Positions 17,621 through 63,919 of a DNA stretch of 64,000 nucleotides are shown here, piece by piece. The notes beneath the pieces are model-generated. The model searched no databases, was not told the origin of the DNA, and saw only the letters and a list, made by a program, of their open reading frames with translations. Origin of the DNA: a virus (lineage: Duplodnaviria > Heunggongvirae > Uroviricota > Caudoviricetes). The stretch's first letter is position 1. Every line of letters begins with the position of its first letter. The stretch lies in IMG/VR virus record IMGVR_UViG_3300029740_000238, one strand, 5' to 3'. The position numbers were made by a program, and so were the translations under genes.

Positions 17621-17657
17621 CTTGCGAACGGCATACAATAAGTGTTGTACGACAGAT
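17621..17657 (+). promoter_or_regulatory. Recurrent promoter-like motif (TTGCGAACGGCATACAAT) plus a downstream inverted partner TTGTACGACAGATA
   Basis: A member of the GTGCGAAT..TACAAT family. Confidence 0.45.
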
Positions 17658-17697
17658 AATAAACCGACATCAACCATTCATAATCTGACAAATTCAG

Positions 17698-17731
17698 ACA
17701 GGCACCAATCGGGTGACCTGTCTTTTTTGTT
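17698..17731 (+). terminator. Leader hairpin plus T-run between the promoter-like motif and the 17769 gene
   Basis: GACAGG ... CCTGTC stem followed by TTTTTTG. Confidence 0.45.
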
Positions 17732-17768
17732 GCAAGACCGCGTAATGCGGAGAAAGTCGAGAAAAGCT

Positions 17769-18119
17769 ATGAACACCATTATGAACACCGCCGAATTCAT
17801 CCGCGTTACCGACCTCCTGAAGAAGGAGAAAATTGCCAAAAATAGCGTCAACATATTTGCCGCTATGATGGCGATGCGCGAGAACCGCCCCGAAGCAATC
17901 TGCGCAGATGGCTTTAAGATGTCTATCCAGGCATCCGAAGACCACTACTGCCAGAAGGACGACGAGGGGAGCTACGTGAGCGTAGAAGTCGGGTTCCCGT
18001 CTCCGTCCGAGCCATTGCTCGACGAATATGGTGATGACGGAGTGTACGGCTATGTGCCGCTCACTGTTGTCGATGCCATCATCGCCAAGCACGGTGGAAT
18101 CCTGCTCGATGAGCAGTAA
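17769..18119 (+). CDS. Small hypothetical protein
   Basis: 116 aa. Its N-terminus (MNTIMNTAEF) resembles the N-termini of the two downstream paralogs. Confidence 0.5.
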   Translation: MNTIMNTAEFIRVTDLLKKEKIAKNSVNIFAAMMAMRENRPEAICADGFKMSIQASEDHYCQKDDEGSYVSVEVGFPSPSEPLLDEYGDDGVYGYVPLTVVDAIIAKHGGILLDEQ

Positions 18120-18252
18120 GCCACTCTATCCAATTCCAGCATGACATTCGGCTGCACGCCGTATGCTCATATATGAAGCAGTTATCGTAAAAATGATAGC
18201 TGCTATTTTTATTTTACAAGCCTCGAAAATACGAGGAGAAAGAGAGTTTGCT

Positions 18253-19413
18253 ATGAAAACCGCTATGAACACCAACATCAACACCAACACTACCAATTCC
18301 AAGAAAGTTATCCCCGGCATCAATGACGTGGCTACCAAATGCCCTAAGGTCGCTGCCATGTGGAGTGACAAGAACACCTTCTCTCCCAGTAAAGTGGCTG
18401 CGGGAAGCAGAAGAAAGTTCACATTTGTTTGCCCAGACTGTGGGCAGGAATTTGAAAGCAAAATCTTTAGTGTTGTTCGTTCGGTAATGAACGGTAACAC
18501 TGGTTGCCCTGTTTGTGCAGGTAAAAAGATTGTTTCCGGCATCAATGATGTGGCTACTAAGTGCCCTATGGCCGCTGCCATGTGGAGTGACAAGAACGCT
18601 TTCACTCCCAGTGAAGCACCTGCAGGAAGCCACAAAAAAGCCATTTTTGTGTGTCCTGATTGCGGACAAGAGTTTGAGTCTTCCATTTGCAATGTCGTCA
18701 ACTCTTTGATGCATTACCGCACCGGTTGTCCCGTTTGTCGTGGCTTGAAAGTGGTTTCCGGAATCAACGACTTGGCTACTAAGTGCCCTGCAGCAGCCAA
18801 CATGTGGGGCAGCAAAAACGCTTGCTCTCCAAATGAGGTATCTGCAGGCAACAACAAAATGGCATGGTTTGTCTGCCCCGACTGCAAACAGGAGTTTAAG
18901 GCTCCCGTTTGCAACGTCGTCAATTCTTTGTTGCATGACAATACCGGTTGCCCTGTTTGTGCAGGTCGCAAAGCTGTTTCCGGCGTCAACGATTTGGCGA
19001 CCATGTATCCAAAAGCCGCTGCTATGTGGAGCGGCAAGAACGATTACGCCCCCAGCAAAATTCCTGCTCGGTCGTCCAGACGCGCAATTTTTGTGTGCCC
19101 CGATTGCAAACAAGAGTTTGTGACAAGCATCCACAACATGACGCGGGCTATTGCATCCGGTGTTACTTGCTGCCCCAATTGCAGAATGCGAGGACATACT
19201 ATCGGTGCGATTTACAAGGATGAGTATGGTTCGCCGAAATCTGTTGGCACTACGATGACGATGAAGGACGGCAGCAAAGCCACCTGCACCGCTTATCATG
19301 GTGTCAACAACATCACCGTCGAGTTCGAAGACGGGTTCGTTCTGTACCATGCTCGCTGGAATCAGTTTATCCGTGGCGCTCTTCACCACGGTCAGAAAAC
19401 CACTGAAGAATAA
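18253..19413 (+). CDS. Protein with four tandem ~70-aa zinc-ribbon repeats (GINDxATKCP ... W ... KN ... CPDC ... GCPVC)
   Basis: Internal repeats were seen directly. RBS GAGGAGAAAG. Paralogous to the next gene. Confidence 0.7.
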   Translation: MKTAMNTNINTNTTNSKKVIPGINDVATKCPKVAAMWSDKNTFSPSKVAAGSRRKFTFVCPDCGQEFESKIFSVVRSVMNGNTGCPVCAGKKIVSGINDVATKCPMAAAMWSDKNAFTPSEAPAGSHKKAIFVCPDCGQEFESSICNVVNSLMHYRTGCPVCRGLKVVSGINDLATKCPAAANMWGSKNACSPNEVSAGNNKMAWFVCPDCKQEFKAPVCNVVNSLLHDNTGCPVCAGRKAVSGVNDLATMYPKAAAMWSGKNDYAPSKIPARSSRRAIFVCPDCKQEFVTSIHNMTRAIASGVTCCPNCRMRGHTIGAIYKDEYGSPKSVGTTMTMKDGSKATCTAYHGVNNITVEFEDGFVLYHARWNQFIRGALHHGQKTTEE

Positions 19414-19542
19414 TAAAAAGCCATCTGATACGAAGTTGGCTTGTGAATGTGAATGTAGCAGCTATCATCTTCCTCCAGTAGGGGGATGGTCGCTGCTTTT
19501 TTATTACAAGCCTCGAATGTTACGAGGAGAAAGAGAAAAATT

Positions 19543-62560: not shown

Positions 62561-62575
62561 CGCTTGCCAAAATAT

Positions 62576-62609
62576 ACGAACGCCGTACAATGTAAAGTGT
62601 GAACAGATA
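62576..62609 (+). promoter_or_regulatory. Promoter-like motif ACGAACGCCGTACAAT with a downstream GTGTGAACAGATA partner
   Basis: Resembles the 17621 copy. Confidence 0.35.
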
Positions 62610-62645
62610 CTAAGCAATCAGTAGGATTCACAATCTGTATTTTAA

Positions 62646-62685
62646 GCGGACTTATCCCATAGCGGGGTAGGTCCGCTTTTTTTGT
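62646..62685 (+). terminator. Hairpin plus T-run in the leader of the MBL-lipoprotein gene (may also terminate the upstream small genes)
   Basis: GCGGACTTATCCC ... GGGGTAGGTCCGC stem followed by TTTTTTTG. Confidence 0.5.
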
Positions 62686-62702
62686 TGAAAGGAGAAGAAT
62701 TC

Positions 62703-63863
62703 ATGAAAATCAAAAACAAGTTTTTACGGAGTACAGCGGCAATCATCGCTACGCTCCTAGCACTCAGCTTCACCGGCTGCGGTCAGAATCCGATAATATC
62801 GGAAAGTCCATCCAGCACCGGGGTCGTCTCAGAAAGCACTGCAAGCAGTGAACAGACGGCTGGCGGTTCGGTGGACGGCAGCTTTACCATTCACTTTATA
62901 GACGTAGGGCAGGCGGATTCCGCCCTTATCACCTGCGACGGCCACTCAATGCTTATTGATGGCGGTAATGTCGATGATTCTAACCTCTTATATTCTGTTA
63001 TGCAGCGTGAAACCGATGGGCACCTGGATTATGCCGTTGGGACTCACGCGCACGAAGACCACATCGGCGGCTTGTCCGGTGCTTTTGAGGCCGTCACTGC
63101 GAACATGACTCTATGCCCTGTGACAGAATACGACAGCAAAGCATTTCGGGACTTTGCAAGCTACGCGGAGCAAAAAGGCGGAGGCATCACGATACCGGAT
63201 GTGGGTGAAACCTACACTCTGGGGGAAGCGGAATTCACGATAGTTGGTGTTAATTCTGTTCCCGGTGACACGAACAATACTTCGATTGTTTTGCGTATTG
63301 TCTATGGAGACACCTCGTTCCTCTTTACCGGAGATGCGGAACAGGAAGCGGAAAACGTGATACTTGCATCGGGACAAGACATTCAGTCAACAGTTCTGAA
63401 AGTAGGGCACCATGGCTCAAGTACATCTACCTCAGAGGCTTTTCTGGATGCGGTAAATCCAACATATGCTGTGATTTCTTGTGGCACAGGGAACAGTTAC
63501 GGTCATCCACATCAGGAAACACTCGACAAGTTGCAAAACAAAGGTGTCGAGGTTTATCGCACAGACCTGCTGGGTGATATTTACTGCACCTCGGATGGCA
63601 AAGAGGTAAGTTTCACTTCCGGTGAATATCATGATGAAAATCGGATTGAAGCCGGTAGTGCTGCAGATTCCAAGGATGAACAGGACAAAGCTTCACTTGT
63701 CATAGACGAGACATACGTTCTGAACACGAGCACTATGAAGTTTCACAAACCCGATTGCTCTGCAGTCGAATCGATGAGTCAAAAGAATCGAATCGACTAT
63801 ATGGGGCCCCGCGATGAGCTCATCCAGGAAGGGTATTCGGCGTGTGGGATTTGCAAACCATAA
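62703..63863 (+). CDS. Secreted metallo-beta-lactamase-fold lipoprotein (ComEC C-terminal-domain-like hydrolase)
   Basis: Lipobox LSFTGC. THAHEDH metal-binding motif plus VGHHGS. RBS GAAAGGAGAAG. Confidence 0.8.
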   Translation: MKIKNKFLRSTAAIIATLLALSFTGCGQNPIISESPSSTGVVSESTASSEQTAGGSVDGSFTIHFIDVGQADSALITCDGHSMLIDGGNVDDSNLLYSVMQRETDGHLDYAVGTHAHEDHIGGLSGAFEAVTANMTLCPVTEYDSKAFRDFASYAEQKGGGITIPDVGETYTLGEAEFTIVGVNSVPGDTNNTSIVLRIVYGDTSFLFTGDAEQEAENVILASGQDIQSTVLKVGHHGSSTSTSEAFLDAVNPTYAVISCGTGNSYGHPHQETLDKLQNKGVEVYRTDLLGDIYCTSDGKEVSFTSGEYHDENRIEAGSAADSKDEQDKASLVIDETYVLNTSTMKFHKPDCSAVESMSQKNRIDYMGPRDELIQEGYSACGICKP

Positions 63864-63882
63864 AAATTGCACCTGATTTACT

Positions 63883-63919
63883 CGACAAGCTGTGCGAACC
63901 GACTACAATAAAAATTGTA
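63883..63919 (+). promoter_or_regulatory. Promoter-like motif GTGCGAACCGACTACAAT with an inverted partner AAATTGTACGATAGATA
   Basis: Palindromic-subtype family member at the window edge. Confidence 0.45.

What the first reader, a model, noticed from the sequence alone, without database searches (positions are those of the whole stretch)
17630..63919. A subset of the motifs carries an inverted partner: TACAAT-N4-7-(A)TTGTACGAYAGATA
At 17631-17657, 55768-55793 and 63895-63919 the TACAAT element is followed by its near-perfect inverted repeat (TTGTACGACAGATA). A weaker copy lies at 62586-62609. The inverted repeat forms a palindromic operator overlapping the putative -10, or a 5'-terminal stem-loop of the transcript. 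This suggests a repressor-controlled subclass of the regulon.
Basis: seen in the sequence. Interest (0 to 1): 0.6.

Follow-up and report, generated by a model that had tools for sequence, protein, structure and literature searches.

The report
Repeated promoter–leader–terminator cassettes on gut plasmid
The "inverted partner" is the near-invariant first 16 bases of a roughly 75-105-nt leader RNA that ends in a terminator just upstream of a gene, and hundreds of these promoter-leader-terminator units punctuate the accessory genes of uncultivated gut Oscillospiraceae-type conjugative plasmids, which points to an undescribed antitermination-type regulon rather than a palindromic operator.

Summary
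TACAAT-N6-TGTACGAYAGATA occurs exactly three times in the window, against 0 expected by chance. A weaker fourth copy lies at 62586.

The palindrome with TACAAT is incidental. Across more than 100 distinct family members, the -10 base needed for the dyad is C in only 50%.

The partner is the start of a transcript. Each site has a sigma-A-type promoter: TTG at -35, TGTGCGAA in the spacer, and TAnAAT at -10. Exactly 6 nt downstream comes an almost invariant 16-nt block, TGTACGATAGATA[C/A]CA. Its first six bases pair with a downstream CGUACA (helix P1) around a variable hairpin. A conserved AAUUCACAAUUU linker follows, then a covarying intrinsic terminator. The next gene's ribosome-binding site and start codon lie less than 50 nt further on.

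A covariance model finds 278 copies in 835 kb of related contigs. They are always co-oriented, with a median spacing of 1.8 kb. No Rfam family matches the RNA.

The best reading is a leader/attenuator regulon that needs an unidentified antitermination factor. The layout resembles Q/AlpA-type promoters. An operator for a repressor at +1 to +16 remains a live rival.

The parts
17612..17639 (+). Site 1 promoter: -35 TTGACG 17612-17617, spacer motif GCGAAC 17624-17629, -10 TACAAT 17634-17639
   Evidence: Sequence; motif; family logo
17646..17728 (+). Site 1 leader RNA. The 5' block TGTACGACAGATAATA is at 17646-17661; the intrinsic terminator is at about 17696-17728
   Evidence: Covariance model R1 scores 40.8 bits, E = 3e-5. 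A near-identical copy (L122) was in the model's training alignment. Fold is -21.5 kcal/mol, z = -3.1
17769..18119 (+). Gene served by the site 1 leader (116 aa, no family match). Its ATG is about 40 nt after the terminator U-run
   Evidence: Sequence; ORF frame
55746..55773 (+). Site 2 promoter: -35 TTGACC, spacer GCGAGG, -10 TACAAT 55768-55773
55780..55858 (+). Site 2 leader, a diverged member. The 5' block TGTACGACAGATATCA is at 55780-55795; the terminator stem 55818-55853 is followed by a U-run. Unlike the other sites, a second GCGAG-type promoter follows (-10 at 55874-55879), then the ORF 55904-56311
   Evidence: R1 scores only 19.1 bits, E = 0.31. Terminator scan. Ten near-identical orthologous copies. 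Fold z = -2.4
62564..62591 (+). Site 4 (the weaker copy) promoter: -35 TTGCCA, spacer ACGAAC, -10 TACAAT 62586-62591
62598..62686 (+). Site 4 leader. The variant 5' block TGTGAACAGATACTA pairs with the conserved linker (UGUGAA/UUCACA); the terminator is at 62644-62678 plus a U-run
   Evidence: R1 scores 50.5 bits, but this copy was in the training alignment. Fold is -33.3 kcal/mol, z = -5.2
62703..63863 (+). Gene served by the site 4 leader: a metallo-beta-lactamase-fold lipoprotein. Its start is about 17 nt after the U-run, which leaves no room for its own promoter
   Evidence: faint Anti-Pycsar Apyc1 hit on record
63882..63909 (+). Site 3 promoter: -35 TCGACA, spacer GCGAAC 63894-63899, -10 TACAAT 63904-63909
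63916..64000 (+). Site 3 leader, cut by the window end. It holds the 5' block, P1, a P3 hairpin, the linker AUUCACAAUUUCGC and the start of the terminator. The complete copy is L149:11214-11317, and a 246-aa gene starts 28 nt later
   Evidence: R1 scores 49.1 bits here and 83-94 bits for complete copies. Fold is -41.7 kcal/mol, z = -7.2
17489..17513 (-). Divergent promoter of the same class with a degenerate partner (TACAAT-aggag-TTGTACAACAAATA). It has a different 5' hairpin and no terminator, so it is not a family member
   Evidence: no R1 match
30628..30662 (+). Promoter of the same class with a degenerate partner (TACAAT-aagaa-TTGTACAAGAGAAA), upstream of the HEARO RNA. It is not a family member

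Best explanation
The partner is the start of a transcript, not half of an operator. Each site is a promoter-leader-terminator cassette.

A sigma-A-type promoter (TTG at -35, TGTGCGAA at -25 to -18, TAnAAT at -10) starts transcription exactly at an almost invariant 16-nt block, UGUACGAUAGAUA(C/A)CA. The first six bases pair with a downstream CGUACA (helix P1), enclosing a variable self-structured hairpin. A conserved single-stranded linker, AAUUCACAAUUU(C)GC, follows. A strong intrinsic terminator then sits 15-40 nt upstream of the next gene's start codon.

Shown here: the anatomy, its conservation, copy number, co-orientation and position relative to genes.

Inferred: by default the promoter produces only a roughly 75-105-nt RNA, and the gene behind it is expressed only when the terminator is overridden. 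The override is probably carried out by one element-encoded factor that recognises the shared sequences. All cassettes would then form a single switchable regulon of accessory, defence and anti-defence genes.

Two sub-mechanisms fit.

(a) Promoter-coupled loading of an antiterminator, as with lambda Q or P. aeruginosa AlpA. The conserved element between -35 and -10 would be the factor's binding site. The -10-like TACGAT at about +3 to +8 would act as a sigma-dependent pause element, with the terminator downstream.

(b) A protein that stabilises a weak antiterminator hairpin (AAUUUCGC/GCGGACUU) competing with the 5' arm of the terminator.

I favour (a) slightly, because the block sits in a fixed register with the -10 element.
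For: **Promoter and block**
- Logo of 121 distinct copies: TTG 90-97%, TGCGA 85-93%, TAnAAT 83-93%.
- The spacing from -10 to the block is fixed at 6 nt.
- Block positions 1-13, 15 and 16 are 97-100% conserved.

**Terminator**
- 98.8% of cells are paired, and 8 of 12 pairs show compensatory changes.
- U-runs are 5-7 nt long.

**Genes directly behind the terminator**
- A Shine-Dalgarno sequence and start codon lie within 50 nt of the terminator in 161 of 187 distinct contexts.

**Leader terminators close off upstream genes**
- Only 43 of 165 cassettes have a separate terminator upstream of the promoter. The leader terminators therefore also end transcripts from the upstream genes.

**Copy number and orientation**
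- 278 covariance-model hits in 835 kb.
- 111 loci carry hits and none has mixed orientation; median spacing is 1.8 kb.

**P1 and the insert**
- P1 is a perfect 6 bp in 119 of 147 copies, against 18 of 147 shuffled. Its 3' strand ends anywhere from nt 20 to 50.
- The insert is self-structured: median z = -1.9.

**Alternative helix**
- 87.7% of cells are paired, against 21-50% when the partner is slid. One pair covaries: C-G 33, U-A 17, U-G 11. The helix uses the A that is bulged out of the terminator.

**Literature parallel**
- Q proteins and AlpA need a binding element between -35 and -10, a -10-like sequence in the initially transcribed region (CACGAT at -1 to +5 for AlpA), and a downstream intrinsic terminator (PMC9371919).

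**The motifs appear specific to this element**
- The spacer motif and the leader are both absent from 42 kb of the nearest sequenced relative, the Vescimonas plasmid: 0 matches against 2.2 expected.
Against: - No transcript ends, termination efficiencies or binding data exist. Every functional step is inferred from sequence.
- No Q, AlpA, NusG/RfaH, BglG-type (CAT_RBD) or ANTAR protein was found among the window ORFs scanned. The only candidates are four Mor/C-like multi-HTH proteins and one XRE-like protein, and none is linked to the motif by evidence.
- The TGTGCGAA spacer motif also occurs at promoters that have no leader.
- The -10-like hexamer reads TACGAC at window sites 1 and 2 and is absent at site 4.
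- P1 is nearly invariant, so covariation cannot prove it.
- The alternative helix rests on a single covarying pair, and it was derived from the consensus, which biases the count.
- Site 2 has a second promoter after its terminator, so that copy may be a free-standing RNA.
Confidence: 0.5

Rival explanations
1. The invariant +1 to +16 block is a DNA operator. An element-encoded repressor sits on the transcription start and shuts this promoter subclass. Transient de-repression follows transfer to a new host (zygotic induction), as with Reg576 on plasmid p576. The leader fold and terminator would be separate features.
For: - The block is conserved at 97-100% with no covariation, and it sits in a fixed register 6 nt after the -10 element.
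- It contains a tandem GATAGATA and an imperfect dyad, TGTA...TACCA.
[quoted passage not shown] - The element encodes HTH proteins.
Against: - It does not explain the conserved complement CGUACA, which lies at variable distance (20-50 nt). That spacing suits an RNA helix, not phased DNA sites.
- It does not explain the conserved linker, or the terminator placed between promoter and gene.
Confidence: 0.2
2. The units are genes for free-standing trans-acting small RNAs: sibling sRNAs that share a 5' seed or a protein-binding tag. Downstream genes would simply be expressed by leaky read-through.
For: - Each unit has its own promoter and a strong terminator. The conserved 5' end and single-stranded linker resemble seed regions of sibling sRNAs.
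- Site 2 is followed by a second promoter before the next gene.
- Attenuator-derived RNAs can act in trans (rnTrpL, PMC6614838, listed).
Against: - 161 of 187 copies sit less than 50 nt from the next gene's start, always in the same orientation as the genes. That placement is unexpected for independent sRNA genes.
- No complementary target of the block was found in the window beyond chance.
Confidence: 0.12
3. The leader is a constitutive tuning and stabilising element. A 5'-terminal helix would protect the mRNA from 5'-end-dependent RNases, and a partly efficient terminator would set a low fixed expression level. No dedicated factor would be involved.
For: - P1 includes the very first nucleotides of the RNA.
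- Compact cassettes with their own promoter suit modular accessory genes.
- Homology breakpoints between related loci are enriched at the units.
Against: - A protective helix or a terminator needs structure, not a 16-nt invariant sequence, an invariant linker and a conserved terminator 5' arm.
- The terminators look strong: 12-16 bp GC-rich stems with U5-7.
Confidence: 0.1
4. The leader is a riboswitch. P1, a conserved junction and variable hairpins would form an aptamer for a global signal, for example a nucleotide second messenger. The linker and terminator would act as the expression platform.
For: - The general layout fits: a helix closing variable stems with conserved unpaired bases, then a terminator with a competing helix.
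- Some downstream genes look like anti-defence enzymes: the MBL protein with a faint Apyc1 hit, a DarG-like macrodomain, and a NADAR domain.
Against: - The 5' domain is not a constant fold. P3 is missing in several members and P1 is replaced in window sites 1 and 4.
- What is conserved is a linear string at the extreme 5' end.
- The proposed antiterminator does not overlap P1.
- No Rfam riboswitch matches.
Confidence: 0.04

Closest known systems
Promoter-proximal antitermination cassettes of lambdoid Q proteins and P. aeruginosa AlpA (PR'-tR', PalpB-tB)
   Same: - A sigma-70/sigma-A promoter carries a conserved element between -35 and -10.
- A -10-like hexamer lies in the first transcribed bases: xACGAT, here TACGAT at about +3 to +8.
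- An intrinsic terminator a short way downstream makes the default product a short RNA, with the regulated genes behind it (PMC9371919).
   Different: - No Q- or AlpA-like protein was found.
- Dozens of cassettes occur per element, instead of one late promoter.
- The conserved transcribed block is 16 nt long and also forms an RNA helix.
- The linker and the terminator 5' arm are conserved too.
- The host is an uncultivated Clostridia plasmid, not a proteobacterial phage.
RNA-binding antiterminator attenuators (BglG/SacY/LicT RAT-terminator, ANTAR, TRAP, PyrR); comparison from my own knowledge
   Same: - A leader carries an intrinsic terminator.
- The terminator's 5' arm can instead pair with an upstream conserved segment.
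- One factor could serve many leaders as a regulon.
   Different: - There is no sequence similarity to RAT or ANTAR hairpins.
- No CAT_RBD, ANTAR, TRAP or PyrR protein is encoded in the window.
- The conserved element is locked to the transcription start, which those systems do not require.
Establishment gene regulatory sequences EGeRS1 and EGeRS2 of pLS20-family conjugative plasmids
   Same: - A conserved regulatory sequence is repeated immediately upstream of the ribosome-binding sites of several accessory or anti-restriction operons.
- It occurs on Gram-positive conjugative plasmids, where the genes are variable and mosaic (PMC8708921; PMC6294495).
   Different: - EGeRS1 is 420-750 bp, GC-rich, and lacks a strong sigma-A promoter.
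- EGeRS2 is a promoter plus a TTATCCC operator for an RHH repressor.
- The unit here is a promoter of about 35 bp plus a leader of about 100 nt with a terminator. It is unrelated in sequence and occurs at 4-5 to more than 10 times the copy number.
PeSLs, composite promoter/stem-loop motifs of T4-like phages
   Same: - Small conserved regulatory units combine a promoter and a stem-loop terminator.
- They separate variable ORFs in hyperplastic regions and coincide with indel and recombination junctions (PMC4122927; here).
   Different: - PeSLs are described as composite terminator/promoter motifs.
- Here the terminator lies downstream of the promoter, with a conserved roughly 60-nt leader between them.
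- The elements are plasmids, not phages.
Single-stranded-DNA promoters (Frpo/ssi) of F and ColIb-P9 leading regions
   Same: - They lie upstream of co-oriented early or anti-defence genes of conjugative plasmids.
- They involve inverted repeats around promoter hexamers (PMC8708921; PMC11541004, listed).
   Different: - Frpo needs long hairpins that rebuild both the -35 and the -10 in ssDNA.
- Here the TACAAT/ATTGTA repeat is 5-8 bp, weak (-2 to -5.6 kcal/mol), not conserved, and the promoter is a normal duplex promoter.

Membership tests
Q/AlpA-type promoter-loaded antitermination | Factor-binding DNA element embedded in the promoter (between -35 and -10 for lambda Q and AlpA) | tested here: inconclusive
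   A conserved TGTGCGAA lies at -25 to -18 in 85-93% of 121 distinct copies. Binding cannot be tested, and the motif also occurs at promoters without a leader.
Q/AlpA-type promoter-loaded antitermination | A -10-like sigma-dependent pause element in the initially transcribed region | tested here: inconclusive
   TACGAT occupies block positions 3-8 in about 98% of family copies. It reads TACGAC at window sites 1 and 2 and is absent at site 4. Because the whole block is invariant, the hexamer cannot be singled out.
Q/AlpA-type promoter-loaded antitermination | Intrinsic terminator between the promoter and the regulated genes | tested here: met
   The terminator covaries. The gene start lies less than 50 nt behind it in 161 of 187 contexts.
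Q/AlpA-type promoter-loaded antitermination | A Q, AlpA or structurally similar antiterminator protein encoded by the element | tested here: not met
   No Q, AlpA or NusG-type family was found in Pfam scans of the window ORFs. PHROGs was run on the 29 window ORFs without a Pfam hit plus 4 ORFs from just beyond the window end. Only 25 of 82 matched families were displayed, and their best matches were Mor/C-like late transcriptional activators. The rest of the element lies outside the window.
BglG/LicT RAT or ANTAR attenuators | Antiterminator hairpin overlapping the 5' arm of the terminator | tested here: inconclusive
   The helix AAUUUCGC/GCGGACUU is paired in 87.7% of cells, against 21-50% when slid, with one covarying pair. 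It is weak, and it was derived from the consensus.
BglG/LicT RAT or ANTAR attenuators | Cognate RNA-binding protein (CAT_RBD+PRD, or ANTAR domain) | tested here: not met
   No such domain was found in the window ORFs scanned.
Riboswitch | Conserved ligand-binding fold shared by all members | tested here: not met
   The 5' domain varies: P3 is optional and P1 is replaced in some members. No Rfam family reaches threshold, and none comes close.
   The third -10 base is C in 56 of 113 leader promoters, against 29 of 73 non-leader promoters. Positions -1 and -2 are T and A in only 69% and 66%. No dyad exists at 62586.
EGeRS2-type repressor regulon (Reg576) | Repeated operator at several promoters plus an autoregulated repressor gene | not testable with these tools
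   A repeated invariant block at +1 to +16 is present. No RHH protein was found, and binding by the HTH proteins cannot be tested.
ssDNA promoter (Frpo) | Long hairpin in the transferred strand that reconstitutes the -35 and -10 boxes | tested here: not met
   Only a 5-8 bp AT-rich repeat is present. The -35 and -10 boxes are 16 nt apart on the same strand, as in a duplex promoter.

The most novel reading that the evidence does not exclude
The cassettes are a new promoter-coupled antitermination system. A single, as yet unrecognised plasmid factor, possibly one of the Mor/C-like multi-HTH proteins, would read the TGTGCGAA spacer element and the invariant start-site block. It would then switch on, all at once, dozens of otherwise terminated cassettes carrying defence, anti-defence and establishment genes. 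This could happen on entry into a new host. That would make it a third type of establishment-gene regulatory sequence. It would also serve as a portable plug-in unit that places any newly acquired gene under the plasmid's control.
Probability: 0.3. Interest if true: 0.8.

Novelty: new variant of a known kind. Interest (0 to 1): 0.62.

Why it matters
Large conjugative plasmids of gut Clostridia are almost unstudied, and how they control their accessory, defence and anti-defence genes is unknown.

A single roughly 135-bp unit repeated every 1-2 kb, with an invariant start-site tag and a terminator in front of each gene, gives three things:
- a sequence signature to find these plasmids and delimit their regulon in metagenomes;
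- a directly testable switch made of promoter, leader and terminator, with a short list of candidate regulators;
- a possible explanation for how new genes are brought under plasmid control as modular cassettes.

If the factor proves to be a new class of antiterminator, Q/AlpA-type control would extend to Gram-positive plasmids.

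Tried and rejected
- **Known RNA family.** Rfam at gathering threshold on the window found only HEARO at 30881-31141. Rfam at E up to 10 on an 11-kb locus holding five leaders gave only chance-level hits.
- **tRNA or tmRNA.** None found.
- **Close relatives among known phages or plasmids.** Megablast of 24 kb against both collections found nothing. Blastn of one unit against plasmids also found nothing.
- **Literature search for the block sequence.** 0 papers.
- **Exact-protein lookup of the MBL gene from the TTG start.** This failed. It succeeded from the ATG at 62703.
- **Guide-RNA or crRNA-like reading of the variable insert.** Rejected, because the insert is self-structured: median z = -1.9, and 80% have z below -1.
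- **Trans-target search for the complement of the block in the window.** Only chance-level matches.
- **Leader peptide attenuation.** No conserved start codon or Shine-Dalgarno sequence lies inside the leader (alignments).
- **PDB sequence search with two Mor/C-like proteins.** Nothing useful.
- **Defence-system assignment of neighbouring genes.** Only weak or partial PADLOC hits.
- **The leader or spacer motif as a general Oscillospiraceae feature.** Neither is present in 42 kb of the Vescimonas plasmid.

Full report
**1. The observation**

The four sites are as described.
- TACAAT 17634 followed by TTGTACGACAGATA.
- TACAAT 55768 followed by TTGTACGACAGATA.
- TACAAT 63904 followed by ATTGTACGATAGATA.
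- A weaker copy, TACAAT 62586 followed by TGTGAACAGATA.

The composite pattern occurs 3 times, against 0.00 expected. The partner alone occurs without mismatch only at these three places, each beside TACAAT.

The short inverted repeat is real at the three strong sites (6-8 bp, -2.1 to -5.6 kcal/mol as ssDNA). It is absent at the weaker one.

**2. Anatomy of one site**

- Upstream of each TACAAT lies a -35-like hexamer at a 16-nt spacing: TTGACG, TTGACC, TCGACA, TTGCCA.
That motif matches 18 times in the window, against 5.9 expected.
- Six bases after the -10 element the partner begins.
- About 40-60 nt further on there is a GC-rich hairpin with a U-run.
- The next gene starts right after the U-run. 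These are ORF 17769-18119, the MBL-fold lipoprotein 62703-63863, and a 246-aa gene 28 nt after the complete copy of site 3 in L149.
- Site 2 is the exception. Its terminator is followed by a second promoter of the same class and then ORF 55904-56311.

**3. It is a large family**

Scanning public collections with TACAAT-N4-6-TGTACGAYAGATA gave two very different results.
- The species-representative genomes gave only 5 stretches. One carries the family features: L005, a gut Clostridiales MAG.
Most come from one data set, on contigs of 28-389 kb, often with several matches per contig.

The 93 distinct sequences share four features.
- The 5' block.
- A variable middle.
- A conserved ...CGTACAATTCACAATTT(C)GC... 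segment.
- A terminator whose 5' arm reads GC(G/A)GACU.

I built covariance model R1 from 31 diverse copies. In the window it finds the four sites and nothing else convincing. Site 2 scores only 19 bits. Sites 1, 3 and 4, or near-identical copies of them, were in the training set.

R1 finds 278 matches in 835 kb of related loci. An independent nhmmer profile finds 326 hits over all loci. All copies within each of 111 loci share one orientation, and the median spacing is 1.8 kb. Locus L040, for example, has seven copies in 12.5 kb with one to three genes between them.

No Rfam family matches. The block sequence does not appear in the searchable literature.

**4. What is conserved**

Anchored on the block, 121 distinct promoters give the following logo.
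- TTG at -34 to -32 (90-97%).
- TGTGCGAA at -25 to -18 (the TGCGA core at 85-93%).
- TAnAAT at -12 to -7 (83-93%).
- An A-rich 6-nt spacer.
- TGTACGATAGATA(C/A)CA, at 97-100% per position.

The dyad is a by-product of TAnAAT meeting the invariant TGTA. It is not a selected operator.

**5. RNA structure**

- *Terminator.* 98.8% of cells are paired, and 8 of 12 pairs have compensatory changes (on the MAFFT alignment).
- *P1.* The first six bases, UGUACG, have a perfect complement (CGUACA) in 119 of 147 distinct leaders, against 18 of 147 with shuffled bodies. The 3' strand ends anywhere from nt 20 to 50. That variable distance fits an RNA helix closing a variable insert, and does not fit phased DNA sites. 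P1 is almost invariant, so covariation cannot prove it.
- *Site 4.* Its altered 5' end, UGUGAA, pairs instead with the conserved linker, UUCACA.
- *Insert.* It is 16-28 nt long and self-structured: median z = -1.9, and 48% fall below -2. This argues against a guide-like spacer.
- *Whole leaders.* They fold with z-scores of -2.4 to -7.2.
- *Alternative helix.* A second, weak helix can form between the linker (AAUUUCGC or AAUUCUGC) and the terminator's 5' arm (GCGGACUU or GCAGACUC). It is paired in 87.7% of cells, against 21-50% when slid. One pair covaries (C-G 33, U-A 17, U-G 11), and the helix uses the A that is bulged out of the terminator. This is suggestive only.

**6. Position relative to genes**

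- In 161 of 187 distinct contexts, a Shine-Dalgarno sequence and start codon lie less than 50 nt after the U-run. There is no room for another promoter.
- Only 43 of 165 promoters have a terminator of their own upstream. Usually the preceding ORF ends 20-80 nt before the RNA start.
- The leader terminator therefore also ends the upstream gene's transcript.
- Expression of the downstream gene requires read-through by polymerases that started at the adjacent promoter. This last step is an inference.

**7. The element**

- The window encodes a type IV coupling protein and a VirB4/TraG-like ATPase.
- It also carries many accessory genes.
  - Type I R-M methylase and specificity subunits.
  - PLD-like and ResIII-type nucleases and helicases.
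  - A UvrD-like helicase.
  - A NADAR domain protein and a DarG-like macrodomain protein.
  - An ImpB/UmuC-family polymerase.
- The VirB4-like protein is closest (38%) to plasmids of Subdoligranulum variabile and Vescimonas fastidiosa, both Oscillospiraceae from the human gut.
- The MBL protein is on record in 207 blocks of the metagenome index.
- The Vescimonas plasmid lacks both the leader and the spacer motif in 42 kb. Both therefore appear specific to this plasmid lineage, which points to an element-encoded factor. That is an inference.

**8. Mechanism**

The shown facts are these.
- A start-site-locked invariant block.
- A conserved element in the promoter spacer.
- A conserved linker.
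- A strong terminator directly before each gene.
- Dozens of co-oriented copies.

They are best explained by a factor-dependent antitermination regulon.

The layout matches what Q proteins and AlpA require. Those systems need a binding element between -35 and -10. They also need a -10-like hexamer in the first transcribed bases (CACGAT at -1 to +5 for AlpA; TACGAT at about +3 to +8 here). And they need a downstream intrinsic terminator (PMC9371919).

The fixed 6-nt register between the -10 element and the block favours a promoter-coupled or 5'-end-specific mechanism over a free RNA-binding site.

Several points count against membership.
- No Q- or AlpA-like protein was found.
- The hexamer is imperfect at three of the four window sites.
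- The conservation extends well beyond what a pause element needs.

The alternative helix allows a RAT-like mechanism instead.

The only regulator candidates are five HTH proteins.
- Four Mor/C-like multi-HTH "late transcriptional activator" paralogues. One is at 38966-39544 and three lie just beyond the window end.
- The XRE-like protein at 47471-49357.

Nothing ties any of them to the motif. The Mor-like gene co-occurs on 23 related contigs, but these are near-identical relatives.

**9. Rivals**

- A repressor operator at +1 to +16, following the Reg576/EGeRS2 precedent, would explain the invariance. It would not explain the distant complement, the linker or the terminator.
- Free-standing sibling sRNAs fit site 2 but not the tight, co-oriented coupling to genes.
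- A constitutive stabiliser or attenuator does not need invariant sequence.
- A riboswitch is unlikely because the 5' domain is not a constant fold.

**10. Comparison and novelty**

Functionally the unit resembles Q/AlpA promoters, or RAT-type attenuators. In genomic role it resembles the establishment-gene regulatory sequences of pLS20-family plasmids and the PeSL promoter/terminator cassettes of T4-like phages.

Homology breakpoints between related loci fall within 25 nt of a unit in 30% of cases, against 8.7% for random positions. Intergenic position alone may explain part of this enrichment.

The unit is unrelated in sequence to any of these systems and is not in Rfam. I rate it a new variant of a known kind: a leader-terminator regulon. 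Its structural description is secure (about 0.85). Its mechanism is open (about 0.5 for factor-dependent antitermination).

Noticed in passing
window 30881-31141 (+): A HEARO (IscB omega-RNA type) RNA scores 89.7 bits with no IscB gene beside it. It is preceded by a GCGAAC-type promoter at 30628-30643 and followed by an SPFH/flotillin-like gene, 31199-32842.
   Followed up: partly
window 33578-35720 (-): An IS200/IS605-type pair: a Y1 transposase (35319-35720) and a long TnpB-like ORF (33578-35314, weak OrfB_IS605 hit).
   Followed up: no
window-wide, e.g. 24249, 36390, 38978, 40188, 43323, 55237, 55864, 56854: The spacer motif (TG)TGCGAA at -25 to -18 marks most promoters of the element, with or without the leader. 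Many of them also start with TGTA six nt after the -10 element. The motif is absent from 42 kb of the related Vescimonas plasmid. What reads it is unknown.
   Followed up: partly
related loci, leader promoters vs non-leader promoters: The consensus T at the third -10 position (TATAAT) is strongly avoided in leader promoters: 4 of 113, against 23 of 73 in non-leader promoters of the same class. This is unexplained.
   Followed up: no
window 38966-39544 and L149 16311-18304 (just beyond the window end): Four paralogous multi-HTH proteins match Mor/C-like late transcriptional activator families. Three of them lie in a row next to an AAA ATPase.
   Followed up: partly
window 62703-63863: The MBL-fold protein behind the site 4 leader has a lipoprotein signal (LSFTGC). 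It has a faint Anti-Pycsar Apyc1 hit on record and PADLOC hits to MBL components. It is found in 207 blocks of the metagenome index.
   Followed up: partly
L149-L154, region between the XRE-like gene and the UvrD-like helicase (window about 49400-56900): This interval is a cassette hotspot. Different relatives carry there RlaP, Cas5d/Csd1/Cas7 genes, a TnpB, HNH genes, or the type I R-M genes seen in the window.
   Followed up: no
related loci with 3 or more leaders (53 loci): Ends of homology blocks between related contigs are enriched at the promoter-leader units: 30% lie within 25 nt, against 8.7% for random positions. This suggests the units are cassette junctions, but the intergenic location may contribute.
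   Followed up: partly
IMG/VR contigs L006-L148: The contigs that carry the motif are filed as viral in IMG/VR. The window, however, encodes conjugation machinery (T4CP, VirB4-like), and no phage structural genes were seen. They are probably conjugative plasmids misfiled as viruses.
   Followed up: partly
window 46349-46909 and 56160-56783: A NADAR-domain protein and a DarG-like macrodomain protein are both candidates for reversing ADP-ribosylation. This is consistent with an anti-defence cargo.
   Followed up: no
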